The notes under the pieces are model-generated. The model was given only the letters and a program-made list of their open reading frames with translations. It made no database searches and was not told the DNA's origin. A stretch of 64,000 nt of DNA from Centroscyllium fabricii (lineage: Eukaryota): positions 66,650,001-66,714,000 of the forward strand of contig JBNRSN020000008.1 in assembly GCA_051313645.2 (NCBI GenBank), read 5' to 3'. Numbering within the stretch: the stretch's first letter is position 1; each line of letters begins with the position of its first letter. Below, in pieces: positions 5,836 through 45,310 of this stretch. Position numbers and translations under genes: made by a program.

Positions 5836-6520
5836 TACAGGTTGAGCACCGTTAATCCGTGTCCCGAATAGCCGGCAGCTTCAGTCTGCCGGCACAAACT
5901 GCCCCGACTGCGCATGCGCAAAATGGCAACCCCCCCCCCCCATCGTGGCTTCAGCGAATGATCTGCGCATGCGCCGATCATTCAAAACAGCTGCGGGTGT
6001 TTTGAATGATCTGCGCATGCGTCACCGGACGGTTAGCGCATGCGCAGATAATTCAATACGGCCGCCCGTTATTTTCTCGATCCGAAACAACAGAAATCTC
6101 TGGAGAAACTCAGCAGGCCAGGCAGCATCTGAAGAAAGGTCATCGACCTGAAACGTTAACTCTGCTTCTCTCTCCACCGATGCTGCCTGGCCTGCTGAGT
6201 TTCTCCAGCGTTTTCTGTTATTACTTCAAAATGATCATAGTCACACAGCTGTTGCTATAGTGACTGAGGCGGACAGTCACTAAGCAACAGCTGTCAGCCT
6301 GAGTCCCGCTCGGCGGCAGCAGCAACCCCAAAGCCGATGGAGAGGGACGGCGGACCCGGGCCCGATCTGCGCATGCCAGCCAATCGCAATGCTGCGCGCA
6401 TGCGCGCGGCCATTTTGCCTGGCGCGCATGCGCAGTGTCCAAACTCGTTCTTCCGGTTTTTTCCATTTCCCGGCACGGGCCTGGTCCCGCCCGTGCCCGA
6501 TTAACGGTGCTCAACCTGTA
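5836..6520 (+). mobile_element. Tigger/pogo-like MITE copy 1, with Penelope-derived hairpin cargo at about 6085-6225
   Basis: TA + CAGGTTGAGCACCGTTAATC ... GATTAACGGTGCTCAACCTG + TA. Confidence 0.8.
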
Positions 6521-8411: not shown

Positions 8412-8879
8412 TACAGGTTGTGCACCGAAAATCCGTGTCCCGAATAGCCGGCAGCTTCAGTCTGCCGGCACAAATTGCCCCGACTGCACTGCGCATGCGC
8501 AAAATGGCAGCCGCCATCGTGGCTTCAGCGAATGAACTGCGCATGCGCCGATCATTCAAAACAGCTGCGGGTGTTTTGAATGATTGCGCATGCGCAGATA
8601 ATTCAATACGGCCGCCCGTTATTTTCTCGACAGCTGAGCCCCGTGACTGAGGCGGACAGTCACTAGGCAACAGCTGTCAGCCTGAGTCCCGCTCGGCGGC
8701 AGCAGCAACCCCAAAGGCGATGGAGAGGGACGGCGGACCCGGGCCCGATCTGCGCATGCGCGCGCCAGCCAATCGCAATGCTGCGCATGCGCAGTGTCCA
8801 AACTCGTTCTCCCGGTTTTTTCCATTTCCCGGCACGGGCCTGGTCCCGCCCGTGGCGGATTAATGGTGCACAACCTGTA
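8412..8879 (+). mobile_element. Tigger/pogo-like MITE copy 2 (no cargo)
   Basis: TA + CAGGTTGTGCACC ... GGTGCACAACCTG + TA; nearly identical to copy 1 outside the cargo. Confidence 0.82.
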
Positions 8880-24315: not shown

Positions 24316-24744
24316 TACAGGTCTGGCACCGGTAATCCGGACACCGGTAATCTGGAAACTTCAGTTGTCCGGAACGAATCCGGACGACCAGCGGCGCATG
24401 CCCGGGCCTCTCCCCGACTGGTCGGCGCATGCGCAAAATGGCCACTGCGCTTGGCTGTGCATGCCCGGGCCCCTCCCCGACTGGTCTGCGCAAAATGGCC
24501 ACCACGCTTGGCTGCACATAATGGCCGCTGCGCAAAATGGCCACCGCGCATGCCCGGGCCTCCCCGAACGATTCATGCTTCGGCGAGCGCATGCGCAGAC
24601 CATTCAAAATGGCCGCCGGCCTTCGTGGTGCCCATTTTGAATGGTCTGCACATGCGCTCGCCAAAGCTTCAATTGTTTGAATTTTTCACTAATTCTGCAC
24701 CGGCCTGGTCCCGCCCGTGCTGGATTATCGGTGTCGGACCTGTA
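24316..24744 (+). mobile_element. Tigger/pogo-like MITE copy 4, filling most of CCNT2 intron 5
   Basis: TACAGGTCTGGCACCGGTAATCC ... GGATTATCGGTGTCGGACCTGTA; internal repeats of GCGCAAAATGGCC. Confidence 0.78.
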
Positions 24745-24857
24745 TATTTAGGTATTGCACACTAAATTCAGTGGGTATAACCAATGTTCAGTATACTTTA
24801 TTGGACACAACTTAAGTTCTGTGTGTATACCTGTACTATATAAACAAAGACACTTAC

Positions 24858-32627: not shown

Positions 32628-32977
32628 CTGTCAAGAATTTTCAACAATGTTAAATGCTTGAATAAAAATACTAATTAGTATCTATCAAAAAACAATCAGC
32701 AAAATTTTGATTCAATCTTATTACGTTAGCTAACTACCTAAACAGTACGGTGCACTTCCATCAACTATGCTTAAAATTTGACTGCTCTCAAATCAAACAC
32801 GAATTTGAAAAGTATAGGTTAATAGATAGCATTGCTCCCAAATCCGAGATAGTATATATGGTAGAGAGTTTATATTTTCACCTAGTGTAGTTCTACAGCA
32901 TATTATCTTGTGATATGCAGCACCTAGTGGTATTTAGAAAAATAGCCATGTTGTCTTGGAGCATAAATTTTGAACAC

Positions 32978-33529
32978 CATTAAGTTAGAGGCTAGTAAGA
33001 GCATTAAGTTAGAGGCTAGTAAGAGCATTAAGTTAGAGGCTAGTAAGAGCATTAAGTTAGAGGCTAGTAAGAGCATTAAGTTAGAGGCTAGTAAGAACAT
33101 TAAGTTAGAGGCTAGTAAGAACATTAAGTTAGAGGCTAGTAAGAGCATTAAGTTAGAGGCTAGTAAGAGCATTAAGTTAGAGGCTAGTAAGAGCATTAAG
33201 TTAGAGGCTAGTAAGAGCATTAAGGTAGAGGCTAGTAAGAGCATTAAGGTAGAGGCTAGTAAGAGCATTAAGGTAGAGGCTAGTAAGAGCATTAAGTTAG
33301 AGGCTAGTAAGAGCATTAAGTTAGAGGCTAGTAAGAGCATTAAGTTAGAGGCTAGTAAGAGCATTAAGTTAGAGGCTAGTAAGAGCATTAAGTTAGAGGC
33401 TAGTAAGAGCATTAAGTTAGAGGCTAGTAAGAGCATTAAGTTAGAGGCTAGTAAGAGCATTAAGTTAGAGGCTAGTAAGAGCATTAAGTTAGAGGCTAGT
33501 AAGAGCATTAAGTTAGAGGCTAGTAAGAG
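32978..33529. repeat. 24-bp minisatellite, 23 copies
   Basis: Unit CATTAAGTTAGAGGCTAGTAAGAG; two adjacent G>A variant units and three adjacent T>G variant units. Confidence 0.95.
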
Positions 33530-35039
33530 TGCAAAGTTATTTCAATTCATGCACTGCTCCTTTAGACGATGACATCATAACTGAGTCTCAATACACAGAT
33601 TGAGCCAACATCTATATTGATGCCCATTTTAAACTTGCAAAGATCATCTTTTGCTATAAATAAAAATTCAATCTCGATGCAACACATCAGCCCAATGCAT
33701 TTAAACTTTGCTTTACCAGCCGTACCTTGAACATGTGCTGAATGTTTTGAAGAAAGTCTTGTAATTTGTGAGTAGGTAAACCAAACTGTTTTAAGATAAG
33801 TGAACAAATGCCACACTCCTACCAATACTGATCTTGCATTCCCAAGAGGTATGGAGGAGTATGAAGTTCAGACACTTACCAATGTACCCAAGTCAATTTT
33901 AAAATCATCTATCCAGTGGCAAAGTTACACATTTTTAAAGCCATGCCAGGTCAGAAAATGCAAGGAAGAAGCTGGGAGGAAGTTTTACATATGGAGGTGG
34001 GGCTTCTTCACAGGAGTATAACTACACCCATGTTACTCAACTTAATATTCTCATTTACTCCACCTCCACAAACCTAAAGTATACCAAAGTAGTGCAGAAA
34101 CTGGCTGCGGGGTTCTGAAGACCTAGATCTTCAACGTGGCTTTCAGCACAGCTGTAAAATTAAATGATGATTAATATGCACGTCAGGTATTTGCCTTCAT
34201 TGGAGACGTCAGAAGAAACCTCAATCCAGTTTAAGAAGTGGCTGTCTAGTTCTACCCTGGAAGCAGACAACGTAAAATGTACTCTACCATTTAATTTGCC
34301 AATGTTTCTTTACAGTGGATTTACTGGAATTCCTTTCCCCATAAAAGCCAATCCACCATCTAAAATCATATTTATATTAGTATCCATGAGGATCTGCAGT
34401 TCAGACTGAAGTAGTTACTGAGCTTGTGAATAACAGTAACAGTGTATTTACCCCTACCCAAAGAGCAGACACACTCTGGCTGCTTTATCCTTTATTCCAG
34501 TCAAAATTACTATGTCTGTACTGGTTAAAATGGATGCCTGGTCTCGGGGCTGGAAAAGTCCCTTCTCAAGCTTGCTGATAATTCAGGCACCAAGCATTAA
34601 ATACCCGAGTGGCACATTTCAGACAAAGCATTTGTACATTTAAGCAATGTCCTAAGTTCTACTTTTAATCCAATTTCTGAAGTTTTCTCATATGGCTTCA
34701 TAAATTATATCTATTTCCCCCTCCCAAATTACAAGCCATAATAAATTGAAAACAAGTCCCAGCGTTAACATAACTGGCATAGCAGATGGCCTCAAAAAAT
34801 ATATCATCCAAGGTACAAAAAACAGAAACCCCTAATCATATTTAGTGTTGTGCTTCCTTCTTGTACTTATATTCTGGATTCTTATGCACAATACATTATG
34901 GCTTTTTAGTCAATGAAGAGAAAAAAACATTTTTCATACAGTTACTGTTTCCATTCATAATGGTCTTATTTTCATCAGGTCTTTAGTAAATTCATTAGTT
35001 TCTATTCCATTTCTTCATCCACATTCTCCACTTCCCTTT

Positions 35040-35430
35040 GGGCGGCACGGTGGCCCAGTGGTTAGCACTGTTGCCTCACAGCACTGGAGACCCGGGTTCA
35101 AATCGAGCCTCGGGTACTATCTGTGTGGAGTTTGCACATTCTCCCCGTGTCTGCGTGGGTTTCCTCCGGGTGCTCCGGTTTCCTCCCCCAGTCCAAAGAT
35201 GTGCGGGTTAGGTTGATTGGCCAGGATAAATTGACCCTTAGTGTTAGGGGGACTGAATATGTGGGGTTGGTGGGATAGGGTGGGATATGTGTCGGTGCAG
35301 GCTCGATAGGGATATGGGGAAAAGGCAGGGACAGGGTACTGGGTTTGGATGATCAGCCATGATCTCATTGAATGGCAGAGCAGGCTCGAGGGGCCGAATG
35401 GCCTACTCCTGCTCCTAGTTTCTATGTTTC
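35040..35430 (+). mobile_element. Full-length HE1-type V-SINE (a truncated copy lies at about 59148-59400 on the - strand)
   Basis: A box TGGCCCAGTGG, B box GGTTCAAATCG, V-domain, CR1-type tail ending TTCTATGTTTC. Confidence 0.88.
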
Positions 35431-40821: not shown

Positions 40822-42080
40822 AGCCCGGAATTGCAGTCAACAGCAAATGAACAGCATTTGCTGTTACTGGTTTAGCACCGTTAATCCGGCACCCGAAAAA
40901 CCGGCAGCTTCAGACGTCCGGCACAGATTTCCCAGAGTGGTCGGCGCATGCGCAGTGGTGCTCCGCACCGTTGCTAGTCATCCGCAATCCCCGACTGGCC
41001 TGCGCAGCGGCGCTCTTGAGACGCTTCTCGCGCTTTACAAAAAACCTGTACCCGACATGAAGGTGGTCTGTGATGCTCGGGCCCCGTGGAGTGTTGGACT
41101 GGGGCCTTTCCCGAATGCGCACTGGCCCCGACAGCCATTTCGAATGTTCTGAGCATGTGCGCGGCCATTTTGAATGGTCCGCATATACGCTTGGGACAGC
41201 TTCACTCATTCGGGTTTTTCAGTATTCTGGCACGGGCCTGGTCCCGGCCATGCCGGATTAACGGTGCTCAACCTGTATGACCCCATTGAAATATCCTAAC
41301 GCGGAAATCTTGAAGTTGCAGTCCGTCATTCACTGCTCCTCCACAGGCTGCGCTGTGCCCCCAAACCCGACAACCAGTGTAATCTGTCAAATCATGGAAC
41401 TGACAAAAACTCCGGCTCTTCCGCTGTACCTGCCACGGTAATACCGATATGGGGACAAGGCAGGGACAGGGTACTGAATTTGGATGATCAGCCATGATCT
41501 CATTAAATGGCAGAGCAGGCTCGAGGGGCCGAATGGCCTACTCCTACCTTCTATGTTTCTAAATACCCAATTAAAAGTTAGACCCTTTGGATCAGACATA
41601 ACTGGTGTTTTAACAGTGTATTATTGCTAAACAAAGGTTACAGCCTGGAAAATCTAATTTTAATTTTGTGCAGTCAAATTTATCCAATTAATAAAAAATA
41701 ATTTTTAAAGAAACTGAAGAGAAAGTTTAATTTTATTTTTTTAAGTTTGTTCATCTTTAGTTCAGGTTTGCCTTTTCTCCTTTGAGAGCACAATCTTTGT
41801 TTTGCTCTCTACCATTTTTAAAAAGTTAGAATCAAAAAGGAGCTTACCCCACTTCCAGATTTGTGGTCTTGAGAATTCTGCGTTTTGATTGGCTGCTTAA
41901 GACAGCTTTTTCACAGCACAGCAGCTGGTCGCTGGGAATCCCCATTAACTTGCGTTAATTTCAATTACACGTCGGAAAAACCGAACTTTTCGCCAGAGAC
42001 CACGAGATCTTCATGGGAAGCTTACTTCAGGGGCCAGTGGCGAATGCCTTCGCTTTGCCGCTGACCCCAAATTACGGGCC
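40822..42080. mobile_element. Non-autonomous Harbinger-like element with nested MITE and SINE tail
   Basis: Shares internal blocks and the right end (CAAATTACGGGCC) with the 13094-13822 and 7420-8234 copies. Confidence 0.55.
40865..41277 (+). mobile_element. Tigger/pogo-like MITE copy 5
   Basis: TACTGGTTTAGCACCGTTAATCCGG ... CCGGATTAACGGTGCTCAACCTGTA. Confidence 0.75.
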
Positions 42081-42735: not shown

Positions 42736-43806
42736 TACAGGTTGAGCACCGTTAATCCGGCACGGGCGGGACCAGGCCCGTGCCGGGAAATGGAAAAAAC
42801 CGGGAGAACGAGTTTGGACACTGCGCATGCGCACCAGTCACAATGGCAGCGCGCATGCGCGCAACATTGGTATTGGCTGGCGCGCGCATGCGCAGATCGT
42901 CCAATATTGGCCGCCGCGAAGTTTTTTGATGGGCTCAGGCTTTTGTGGTGTTCCGTTTAGGTTTTAGGGCTGTCGGGCAGCAGTGAAAGGCCGGTCTTGC
43001 GGGGGGAGGCAGGAGGGTGGCGTGGCGTGGCGCGCGGGGGGAGGAAGGCGCGGGTCCGGGGGGGGGGGGGGAAGGCGCGGGGGGGGGAGAGAGGAAGGCG
43101 GGGGGGGGGGGGGGGAGGAGGAAGGCGCGGGTCGGGGGGGGGGAGAGAGGAGGATGGCGCGGGTCCGGGGAGGGGGGAGGAAGGCGCGGGGGGGGGGGGG
43201 GGGGAGGGAGAGGAGGAAGGCGCGGGTCCGGGGAGGGGGGAGGAAGGCGCGGGGGGGGGGGGGGGGGGGGGGGAGAAGGAGGGTGGCGCGGGTCGTCGGG
43301 GGGGGCAATTTATCCAATCCCGTTTTGCTCTAAGAGGTCACACGGCGCCAGGCTGTGGTCCAACGGTTTTAGTTGGGGTCACGGGCTTTCGGAGCGCCGC
43401 TTCCCCGTCAGGTGATGGGGGAGCGGCGCTCCGAAGGTCCGTGATTTCGAGTGGGACTTTTGGACTACAGCCTGGTGCTGTGTGGCTTCTTACAATTGTC
43501 CATCCCAGTCCAACACCAGCACCTCCACATCATGGCTTCAATTACAGTTATCGATAAAATAACCGGCTCCCGTATTGAATTATCTGCGCATGCGCTAACC
43601 TTCAGGCGACGCATGCGCAGATCATTCAAAACACCCGCAGCTGTTTTGAATGATCTGCGCATGCGCTCGGCGCATGCGCAGATCGTTCGTTGAAGCCACG
43701 ATGGCGGCTGCCATTTTGCGCATGCGCAGTGCAGTCGGGGCAATTTGTGCCGGCAGACTGAAGCTGCCGGCTATTCGGTTACCGGATTAACGGTGCTCAA
43801 CCTGTA
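42736..43806 (-). mobile_element. Tigger/pogo-like MITE copy 6 with G-rich repeat and hypermutated Penelope hairpin cargo
   Basis: Perfect TIR TACAGGTTGAGCACCGTTAATCCGG / CCGGATTAACGGTGCTCAACCTGTA; end modules match copies 1 and 2 in reverse orientation. Confidence 0.85.
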
Positions 43807-44173: not shown

Positions 44174-44786
44174 TACAGGTTGAGCACCTGTAAGCCGGCA
44201 CCCGATGGCCCGGCACCTTCAGTGGTCCGGCACGAATCGAAACCGGCGGTCTTGTTTGCGGAGCAGCCGCTCAGCGGTGCCACCGTTTCATAGAATCCCT
44301 ACAGTGCAGATAGAGGCCATTTCAGCCCATCGAGCCTGCACCGACTCATATCCCACCCTATCCCCATAACCCCACGTATTCAATCCCCCTAACACTAAGA
44401 GTCAATTTATCCTGGCCAATCAACCTAACCCGCACATCTTTGGACTGTGGGAGGAAACCGGAGCACCCGGAGGAAACCCACGCAGACACGGGGAGAATGT
44501 GCAAACTCCGCACAGATAGTACCCGAGGCTGGATTTGAACCCGGGTCTCCAGTGCTGTGAGGCAACAGTGCTAACCACTATGCCACCGTGCCGCCCAAGG
44601 GTGGGCGAGCGCCGAAGGCGTTGGGGTTGCTGCTTTTTTAGGTCTTGTAAATATTCTATCCCCGGGCTCCCACCCGGGGAGTGTTCTACCCGCGTGCTCC
44701 CCCCGAACCTTCAGTGGTTCGGAATTTTCAATGGTCCGGCACCGGCCTGGTCCTGAGGGTGCTGGATTACCGGTGCTCAACCTGTA
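44174..44786 (+). mobile_element. Tigger/pogo-like MITE copy 7 containing an inverted V-SINE (44289-44596)
   Basis: TACAGGTTGAGCACC ... GGTGCTCAACCTGTA; SINE head and V-domain on the - strand. Confidence 0.8.
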
Positions 44787-45079
44787 CCATGATAAATCAT
44801 CTCATACCATATCTGTGGCATAGACAGTTATATTTTACATTTCTCTCTTATGGGACAGATGGGCAATAGTGATACAAGAGCTAAGGATAGGTGGCATCGC
44901 ATGACTAGTAGAACAGTATTTTTTTCCCCAATTCTGCTACATGCTCCTCATTCATTTAAAAACAAACTTCACAGTACAACTCTGCATCAATTCCCACGTT
45001 AAAGTCTGCAAACATGCAGGCACAACTGAAGTCGCGCGGATGCTTCCTCGGGAGCCCATGAGGTTAGATCAGTTTAAAG

Positions 45080-45310
45080 TGTAAGAAGTCACACAACACC
45101 AGGTTATAGTCCAACAGTTTTATTTGAAATCACAAGCTTTCAAGGTGAAAGAGGAACCTGAGGAAGGAGCAGACGCTCCTTCCTCAGGTTCCTCTTTCAC
45201 CTTGAAAGCTTGTGATTTCAAATAAAACTGTTGGACTATAACCTGGTGTTGTGTGACTTCTTACAATTGTCCACCCCAGTCCAACACTGGCACCTCCACA
45301 TCATGGCTAG
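45080..45310 (+). mobile_element. Penelope-like fold-back fragment, 91-bp perfect inverted repeat
   Basis: Arms 45080-45170 and 45175-45265, loop AGAC; flanked by direct repeat AGTTTAAAGT. Confidence 0.8.

What the first reader, a model, noticed from the sequence alone, without database searches (positions are those of the whole stretch)
43331..43537. Hairpin cargo with about half of its A residues changed to G, confined to the paired stem: possible genomic fossil of ADAR hyper-editing inside a DNA-type MITE
Seen: aligned by hand to the unmutated Penelope terminal copies in this window (45080, 46593, 60417), the fold-back stem 43331-43492 has about 23 A>G changes among about 46 A residues, 8 T>C changes and only about 5 other changes. 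The adjacent unpaired tail (43493-43537) has 0 A>G among 11 A residues. All 8 T>C sites pair exactly with an A>G site across the stem (paired coordinates sum to 86823, e.g. 43353/43470, 43355/43468, 43345/43478, 43383/43440), so A-U became G-C. Nearly all remaining changes give G-U wobbles, so folding is kept on the + strand but broken on the - strand (the CCNT2 pre-mRNA strand). The hammerhead core is destroyed. Established: clustered, strand-specific A>G restricted to duplex regions is the signature of ADAR acting on dsRNA. Inference: an edited RNA was reverse-transcribed and fixed, with later hairpin-templated correction or a second round of editing on the opposite strand. That would mean this cargo, or the TIR element carrying it, went through an RNA stage. 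Alternatives are GC-biased repair of an extruded DNA hairpin or selection on a folded strand. A residues preceded by G are changed less often (3/10 vs 20/36), which is the ADAR direction but too few sites to be significant.
Basis: partly seen in the sequence, partly recalled or inferred. Interest (0 to 1): 0.82.

Follow-up and report, generated by a model that had tools for sequence, protein, structure and literature searches.

The report
RNA editing fossilised in a transposon
A DNA transposon in this fish genome carries, in thousands of copies, a hairpin in which half the A bases turned into G after the hairpin was already in place, likely because the enzyme ADAR edited its RNA and a reverse transcriptase wrote the edits back into inherited DNA, and other places in the same genome show this pattern in what are likely RNA-derived copies.

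Summary
In detail: 23 A>G, 8 T>C and 5 other changes in the stem, 0 of 11 A>G in the tail. The hairpin is fixed cargo of a Tigger/pogo transposon lineage with at least 2,746 copies.

History: empty site (53 matches), then a Penelope-type insertion left unedited (6 copies, same site), then 18 A>G on one strand confined to the stem (18 of 46 versus 1 of 241 elsewhere), then later T>C and further A>G. So the changes came after insertion.

Fifteen unrelated loci show the same one-strand A>G with ADAR's 5'-G avoidance. All have a same-strand LINE tail within 2.6 kb downstream (one ambiguous). One is a 1.3-kb duplicate of an unedited locus, ending at that tail. Another belongs to a 5'-truncated family in which 10 of 10 full-stem copies carry different edit patterns.

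Best reading: ADAR-hyper-edited read-through RNA, copied into germline DNA by a CR1-type LINE, then amplified by DNA transposition. The route is well supported for the standalone loci and inferred for the transposon, whose founder copy was not found. The cause of the T>C layer is unresolved. No RNA or raw-read check was obtained.

The parts
42738..43804 (.). Non-autonomous Tigger/pogo-type DNA transposon copy (MITE), young subfamily, flanked by TA at 42736-42737 and 43805-43806
   Evidence: sequence; TA ends and unique flanks across copies; longer relatives encode CENP-B_N and HTH_Tnp_Tc5
42738..42760 (+). Left terminal inverted repeat (23 bp)
   Evidence: sequence, self match
43782..43804 (-). 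Right terminal inverted repeat (23 bp)
   Evidence: sequence, self match
42990..43305 (+). G-rich variable tandem repeat of the youngest subfamily, in place of the internal transposon body
43331..43410 (+). 5' (inverted, tail-less) arm of the Penelope-type hairpin; first-burst A>G at 43344, 43345, 43347, 43355, 43376-43378, 43383, 43384; later A>G at 43336, 43357, 43365; later changes to C at 43353, 43398, 43404, 43405
43413..43492 (+). 3' (sense) arm; first-burst A>G at 43418, 43419, 43425, 43449, 43451, 43453, 43454, 43470, 43485; A>G at 43455 predates the burst; later A>G at 43436; later T>C at 43439, 43440, 43468, 43478
43493..43537 (+). Unpaired Penelope-type tail, 0 of 11 A changed to G
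43533..43544 (+). Right copy of the target-site duplication of the hairpin insertion; the left copy is eroded in this subfamily and intact in older ones
   Evidence: empty site found
45077..45308 (+). Unedited standalone hairpin of the same repeat family (comparison copy)
35351..35428 (+). One window copy of the LINE/SINE 3' tail at which the edited duplicates elsewhere in the genome end (used as probe)

Best explanation
The G-rich hairpin is a Penelope-type fold-back insertion inside a Tigger/pogo transposon that gained 18 A>G changes on one strand after it was inserted, likely because ADAR hyper-edited a transcript running through it and a reverse transcriptase, probably that of a CR1-type LINE priming at a downstream LINE/SINE tail, copied the edited RNA into germline DNA, after which DNA transposition spread the edited form to thousands of sites. 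Shown: order of events (empty site, unedited insertion, edited insertion, further layers), strand and stem confinement, amplification with TA ends and unique flanks, and unedited/edited twins ending at a LINE tail at two other locus families. Inferred: that the enzyme is ADAR; that the transposon's founder arose by the same LINE route (whole element, or a partial copy that recombined with a full element); that the 4 later A>G, and perhaps the T>C layer, record further RNA passes.
For: Same-site unedited copies: 4 matches plus 2 more; empty site 53 matches. Burst 18 of 46 stem A versus 1 of 241 in the rest; 5 of 735 in the full-length body. No partly edited copy among the 8 matches that have 43418 unedited. 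Fifteen unrelated loci with one-strand A>G from two narrow patterns (10 and 12 matches); triple G>A control 0 matches. G-T 223 versus A-C 8 in 7 hairpins; 5' neighbour A 51%, T 51%, C 29%, G 23%, matching the G depletion reported for hyper-edited RNA (PMC4365171, passages). Tails are edited where both arms carry one and it is paired (L095). Same-strand LINE tail within 1.5 kb downstream in 10 of 15 loci (11 with one ambiguous locus) versus 10 of 60 background (p=3e-4). L101/L223 duplicates unedited L224 over 1.3 kb and ends at the tail: stem 17 of 38, rest 7 of 275. The L100 family is 5'-truncated with a common 3' end: stem 187 of 536, upstream flank 18 of 2370, 0 of 45 pairs share a pattern, one member unedited.
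Against: The founder copy of the edited transposon was not found: sampled copies have unique flanks and no excess of downstream LINE tails (1 of 27 old, 5 of 70 young within 900 nt). A whole-element copy would need more than 5 kb of RNA. ADAR's 3'-G enrichment is weak or absent (43% versus 37%, p=0.20; 32% in the L100 family). No source was found for L103 or L092 among the 40 best candidates each. Locus L098 has mirrored changes on both arms, which one edited strand does not explain. Two later transversions restore pairing (43398, 43464), which ADAR cannot make. No RNA data and no raw reads were examined. The loci were found with patterns that force three A>G, so they are selected (forced sites were left out of the neighbour counts).
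Confidence: 0.8

Rival explanations
1. Same ADAR origin, but for the transposon the edits were written in place: cDNA of the edited transcript (made by the Penelope reverse transcriptase priming at its own tail, or by RNA-templated repair of a break at the palindrome or after excision) replaced only the hairpin in a resident copy. No whole-element retrocopy was needed.
For: Three successive stem-limited bursts in one lineage (18 A>G; 7 T>C; 4 A>G of 26 versus 3 of 223 outside) are easier with a local, repeatable route. A Penelope-like protein extends both DNA strands and starts inside the RNA at two sites flanking the tail (PMC11167929, parts 1-2 of 4). No founder retrocopy seen.
Against: Where a twin could be found the edited copy is a new insertion ending at a LINE tail, not a rewritten resident locus. 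No resident young copy with fresh + strand clusters: 2 matches, each a single change.
Confidence: 0.13
2. DNA-level process: GC-biased repair or template switching in an extruded hairpin, or direct deamination of DNA, made the changes with no RNA stage.
For: The later layer turns T to C only opposite G (8 of 19 versus 0 of 26 opposite A, p=4e-4); two transversions restore pairing; L164 shows a true template-switch tract. For the T>C layer alone I give this about 0.4.
Against: Repair of a perfect hairpin cannot create 18 mismatches. Resident copies show no ongoing T>C at G-T sites (2 of 642 old, 3 of 1310 young, no higher than at A-T pairs). It does not predict 5'-G avoidance, LINE tails or 5'-truncated families.
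Confidence: 0.04
3. Ordinary subfamily drift with selection on a folded strand or against a perfect palindrome upstream of the transposase gene.
For: The hairpin sits upstream of the transposase ORF on the opposite strand; edited lineages far outnumber unedited ones (2,746 and 224 matches versus 6 copies), so selection may have helped the edited form spread.
Against: No stepwise intermediates for the first burst; single-locus duplicates with private patterns have had no lineage on which selection could build 10-25 changes.
Confidence: 0.02
4. Sequencing or assembly artefact in hairpins.
For: Systematic mismatch clusters from sequencing error are documented (PMC2873906, passages); no raw reads were laid here.
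Against: Identical changes in thousands of dispersed copies on both strands; unedited hairpins of the same shape assemble cleanly; 0 of about 84 non-cargo copies flagged in unselected sequence.
Confidence: 0.01

Closest known systems
APOBEC DNA editing of LTR retrotransposons fixed in vertebrate genomes (PMC4866542, passages read)
   Same: Clustered, strand-biased hypermutation of mobile-element sequence inherited in the genome
   Different: G>A on cDNA by a cytidine deaminase in LTR elements; that study used DNA transposons as a negative control. Here A>G, limited to dsRNA-forming parts, in non-LTR copies and in a DNA transposon.
ADAR hyper-editing of inverted-repeat transcripts (PMC4365171, passages read)
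   Same: A>G clusters in paired regions, depletion of G 5' of the site
   Different: Described in RNA reads; here the pattern is in genomic DNA. The 3'-G enrichment is weak here. A 2016 review says a role of ADAR editing in Alu subfamily evolution was not yet determined (PMC4982230, passage).
SINE/LINE shared-tail retroposition with stringent 3'-end recognition; HE1/HER1 pair in sharks and rays (PMC3747384, passages and table)
   Same: RNAs ending in a LINE tail are copied by that LINE; copies are 5'-truncated with a common 3' end
   Different: Here 0.6 to over 1.6 kb of upstream sequence, including an edited hairpin, is carried along. The names HE1/HER1 for this tail are recalled, not tested.
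Penelope-like elements: inverted pLTR insertions with a tail (PMC11167929, parts 1-2 of 4 read)
   Same: One end with tail, one without, target-site duplication, adjacent GIY-YIG-like ORF end in the window (label recalled)
   Different: The edits were not acquired during Penelope transposition: the insertion was unedited first.
A-to-G hypermutated retroviral proviruses in culture and retroprocessing of edited RNA in plant organelles (both recalled, not read here)
   Same: Edited RNA is reverse-transcribed and fixed in DNA
   Different: Viral or organellar; not a vertebrate nuclear germline record amplified by a DNA transposon.

Membership tests
ADAR A-to-I hyper-editing product | Clustered A>G on one strand far above other changes | tested here: met
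   G-T 223 versus A-C 8; 188 A>G versus 35 other changes in the L100 family stem
ADAR A-to-I hyper-editing product | Confined to double-stranded regions | tested here: met
   stem 18 of 46 versus 1 of 241; tail 0 of 11; paired tails edited in L095
ADAR A-to-I hyper-editing product | G depleted 5' of edited A | tested here: met
   p=1.3e-4; per-column test p=0.0035 in the L100 family
ADAR A-to-I hyper-editing product | G enriched 3' of edited A | tested here: not met
   43% versus 37%, p=0.20; 32% in the L100 family
ADAR A-to-I hyper-editing product | Inosine or A>G in RNA of unedited loci, dependent on ADAR | not testable with these tools
   no RNA holder listed
LINE-mobilised retrocopy (standalone loci) | 3' end at a LINE tail on the same strand | tested here: met
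   tail follows a reverse-transcriptase ORF
LINE-mobilised retrocopy (standalone loci) | Variable 5' truncation and unrelated flanks | tested here: met
   L100 family; L223 versus L224
LINE-mobilised retrocopy (transposon founder) | Founder copy with duplicated outer flanks and LINE tail | tested here: inconclusive
   not among the sampled copies; only about 125 of some 3,000 copies were fetched
CR1 clade (for the LINE) | Reverse-transcriptase phylogeny | not tested
   RVT_1 hit only; CR1 label recalled from the ORF2 C-terminal motifs seen
Tigger/pogo (Tc1/mariner) transposon | TA target duplication and terminal inverted repeats | tested here: met
Tigger/pogo (Tc1/mariner) transposon | CENP-B-type DNA-binding domains in the transposase | tested here: met
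   PF04218 and PF03221 above cut-off in L174
Tigger/pogo (Tc1/mariner) transposon | DDE/DDD catalytic domain | not tested
   only the N-terminal 182 residues were scanned
Penelope-like element terminus | Inverted arm plus tail with target-site duplication | tested here: met
Penelope-like element terminus | Linked RT plus GIY-YIG ORF | tested here: inconclusive
   only a short C-terminal fragment next to a window copy; label recalled
Penelope-like element terminus | Hammerhead ribozyme motif | tested here: inconclusive
   no Rfam hammerhead match; a minimal core is visible by eye in single-arm copies (recalled consensus)

The most novel reading that the evidence does not exclude
In this genome ADAR hyper-editing is a recurring, heritable mutagen: LINE reverse transcriptase writes edited read-through RNAs into the germline, and one DNA transposon lineage passed through edited RNA up to three times (plus strand, minus strand at A-C mismatches, plus strand again), each time founding a more successful subfamily. 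The genome would then hold a datable fossil record of germline ADAR activity, and a cut-and-paste transposon would have evolved through RNA intermediates.
Probability: 0.4. Interest if true: 0.93.

Novelty: new variant of a known kind. Interest (0 to 1): 0.86.

Why it matters
RNA editing is normally treated as non-heritable. Whether ADAR edits feed into mobile-element evolution through reverse transcription was named as undetermined in a 2016 review (PMC4982230), and genome screens for fixed editing have centred on APOBEC G>A, with DNA transposons as a negative control (PMC4866542). This genome offers before-and-after pairs and a family of independent copies from one template, so the question becomes directly testable: rate, age, sequence preference and germline tissue can be read from DNA alone. 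It also shows a way for a DNA transposon to take up RNA-level changes. Nine literature searches of open-access text bearing on this listed no paper reporting it; I judged most from titles and abstract starts, and subscription journals were not searched.

Tried and rejected
1. Edits acquired during Penelope insertion (my first model): rejected, the same insertion exists unedited in the transposon and at L224.
2. Mirror-copying of one edited arm by fold-back synthesis: rejected, both arms carry independent A>G on one strand and T>C came later.
3. Ongoing G-T to G-C repair in resident copies: no excess.
4. CpG-directed glycosylase repair as the T>C cause: only 2 of 8 converted T lie before G (contexts), so not favoured.
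5. Founder search: no shared outer flanks between edited and unedited transposon copies.
6. Source search failed for L103 and L092 (its downstream flank is itself a high-copy repeat); only 40 candidates are scored per search.
7. Further + strand hyper-edited young copies: 2 matches, single changes only; the opposite-strand test was not done.
8. RNA: no RNA holder listed. No reads or contigs were laid, so raw-data confirmation is open.
9. The background count of mismatches in unedited hairpins caught only one hairpin and is not used.
10. The triple G>A control is longer than the test patterns and fixes more positions, so it is an imperfect control; no baseline count of unedited copies was obtained.
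11. Rfam matches are generic hairpin hits below gathering scores.
12. Unselected sequence (195 held sequences, 748 kb): 1 of 97 SINE/LINE-tail copies and 0 of about 84 non-cargo hairpin-family copies flagged, so edited copies are rare.
No supplements were read.

Full report
OBSERVATION. The stretch 43331-43537 is a fold-back copy of a repeat end that occurs several times unmutated in the window. Counted against natural unedited copies of the very same insertion it has 23 A>G, 8 T>C and 5 other changes in the stem and 0 of 11 A>G in the tail; all 8 T>C face a former A. The + strand folds as one rod, the - strand less well.

WHAT CARRIES IT. The hairpin lies in a TA-flanked element with 23-bp inverted ends (42738-43804). 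All 40 copies scored by a DNA search are 99-100% identical, all 30 fetched lie in the same element, and a junction pattern gives 2,746 exact matches. Longer relatives of about 5 kb encode CENP-B_N and HTH_Tnp_Tc5 domains, so this is a Tigger/pogo-type transposon and its deletion derivatives. Copies have TA ends and unique flanks, so they spread as DNA.

ORDER OF EVENTS. (1) Empty site: 53 matches (5 of the 20 fetched share flanks and are duplicates). (2) The hairpin inserted with a target-site duplication and unedited: 6 copies (one lacks the 3' arm, one the 5' end). They share two private changes with the edited form (43416, 43455). (3) An older edited group (34 of 119 distinct copies mapped) has 18 A>G and no T>C; on that branch 1 of 241 A changed in the rest of the element and 5 of 735 in the full-length body (19 of 46 as counted, 18 after removing changes private to the unedited branch; p=3e-15). 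None of the first 100 listed of 224 old-junction matches is unedited at both tested A, and the 8 matches with 43418 unedited are 5 unedited transposon copies, 1 unrelated hairpin and 2 young copies with one back-change, so no partial state was seen. (4) One intermediate copy, L126, adds 7 T>C shared with the young group, all opposite G. (5) The young group (82 of 119) adds 4 A>G (4 of 26 versus 3 of 223 outside), one more T>C, one C>T and a change to C at 43398 that is most simply A>C. So the first burst was written into a hairpin that already sat inside the transposon.

IT IS NOT A ONE-OFF. Two narrow patterns forcing three A>G gave 10 and 12 matches: 5 are transposon copies, 2 are repeats of the same locus, 15 are unrelated loci. 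A triple G>A pattern gave 0 (an imperfect control). In the 7 with both arms in view, G-T mismatches number 223 and A-C 8; one 720-bp hairpin has 75 against 2. With forced sites removed, editing by 5' neighbour is A 51%, T 51%, C 29%, G 23% (p=1.3e-4 for G); the 3'-G effect is not significant. G depletion upstream is the reported ADAR context (PMC4365171, passages). The edited strand is sometimes the tail strand and sometimes the opposite one, which a Penelope-only relay does not explain.

HOW THE EDITS REACH DNA. Searching with L101 found an unedited twin, L224, with the same target duplication and private variants. The shared segment starts about 45 nt upstream of the hairpin, runs 1.3 kb and stops at the 3' end of a LINE/SINE tail; stem A>G 17 of 38, rest 7 of 275 with balanced other transitions. 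This predicted a same-strand tail downstream of the other loci: found within 1.5 kb in 10 of 15 (11 with the ambiguous L098) against 10 of 60 for unedited hairpins (p=3e-4), and within 2.6 kb in all. The tail follows reverse-transcriptase ORFs; the CR1 label is recalled, and stringent tail recognition is described in PMC3747384 (passages). L100 proved to be one of a family with a common 3' end at such a tail and staggered 5' ends. Of 20 fetched members I dropped 2 near-identical duplicates. Pooled A>G: stem 187 of 536, upstream flank 18 of 2370, spacer 4 of 817, tail 5 of 168; one member is unedited (0 of 41). Ten full-stem copies have ten patterns (0 of 45 pairs identical, 2 nested). In some members the downstream SINE is also heavily changed (40 of 71 in L234). 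This is what repeated copying of differently edited RNA molecules from one template would give. Source searches for L103 and L092 found none.

BACK TO THE TRANSPOSON. By analogy a transcript running through an unedited element on the window's + strand (antisense to the transposase) was edited and copied by the LINE, whole or in part with later recombination; edited hairpins are found on full-length elements too. The founder was not found, so rewriting in place by cDNA remains a rival. For the T>C layer, 8 of 19 T opposite G changed against 0 of 26 opposite A and 0 of 19 G reverted. On the - strand these are A-C mismatches, which occur in efficiently edited ADAR substrates (PMC3141254, passages), and the unchanged ones cluster where that strand forms an internal loop. 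Against that, two transversions also restore pairing (43398, 43464) and L164 shows DNA template switching. Resident copies show no steady repair of G-T sites, so the layer was episodic. I put DNA repair at about 0.4 and a second RNA pass at about 0.6 for this layer.

FREQUENCY. In 748 kb not chosen for edits, 1 of 97 SINE/LINE-tail copies and 0 of about 84 non-cargo hairpin-family copies carry a cluster. The phenomenon is rare per copy; the counts above are lower bounds.

KNOWN SYSTEMS AND NOVELTY. It works like ADAR hyper-editing plus SINE-type retroposition, each known alone. Fixed editing in genomes is established for APOBEC G>A in LTR elements, where DNA transposons served as negative control (PMC4866542, passages). 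A review calls the ADAR counterpart undetermined (PMC4982230, passage); one paper speculates that A-to-G and U-to-C differences among transposon-derived miRNAs reflect ADAR, without this kind of test in the passages seen (PMC11031087). Searches listed no report of ADAR-type clusters fixed by LINE copying; coverage is open-access only and mostly judged from listings. A-to-G hypermutated proviruses and retroprocessed edited organelle genes are recalled precedents, not read here.

LIMITS. No RNA and no raw reads were examined; ADAR is inferred from the signature; the intermediate step rests on one copy; about 125 of some 3,000 transposon copies were studied.

VERDICT. New variant of a known kind; interest 0.86.

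Noticed in passing
L234:1858-2241 (also L238, L240, L250): The SINE ending in the LINE tail is itself A>G hyper-mutated in some family members (40, 21, 19 and 12 of 71 A); its pairing partner was not located.
   Followed up: partly
L200:9375-9452: A LINE-tail copy with 7 of 15 A>G found in sequence not selected for edits.
   Followed up: no
L164 (young transposon copy): A tract of the 3' arm is replaced by the exact reverse complement of the 5' arm, a clean template-switch event.
   Followed up: partly
L098/L099 (L233): Two inverted arms about 1 kb apart share nearly the same A>G changes in mirrored orientation, with a TIR-like element between them; not explained by one edited strand.
   Followed up: partly
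L231:980-2100 (L092 locus): The edited hairpin sits directly upstream of a high-copy repeat of about 1.5 kb that leads to a LINE tail, so it may have travelled inside a LINE.
   Followed up: partly
L192 and L196: Long transposase frames (497 and 513 residues) on an unedited and an edited full-length element; several full-length copies are interrupted by LTR-type insertions.
   Followed up: no
window 42990-43305: G-rich tandem repeat of very variable length replaces the transposon body in the youngest subfamily (element length 805-1310 bp among 67 copies).
   Followed up: no
window 45077-45308: Unedited near-perfect 94-bp hairpin with a nested inner palindrome, about 600 bp into the first intron of the cyclin T gene; a good target for an RNA editing test.
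   Followed up: no
window 5836-6520, 8412-8879, 24316-24745, 40865-41278, 44174-44787: Further TA-flanked elements with related inverted ends and no hairpin cargo.
   Followed up: no
window 32850-33650: Tandem array with a 24-bp period.
   Followed up: no
L216, L217, L218, L221, L222: Five empty-site transposon copies share their right flank at 93-99.9% identity, so they lie in a larger duplicated unit.
   Followed up: no
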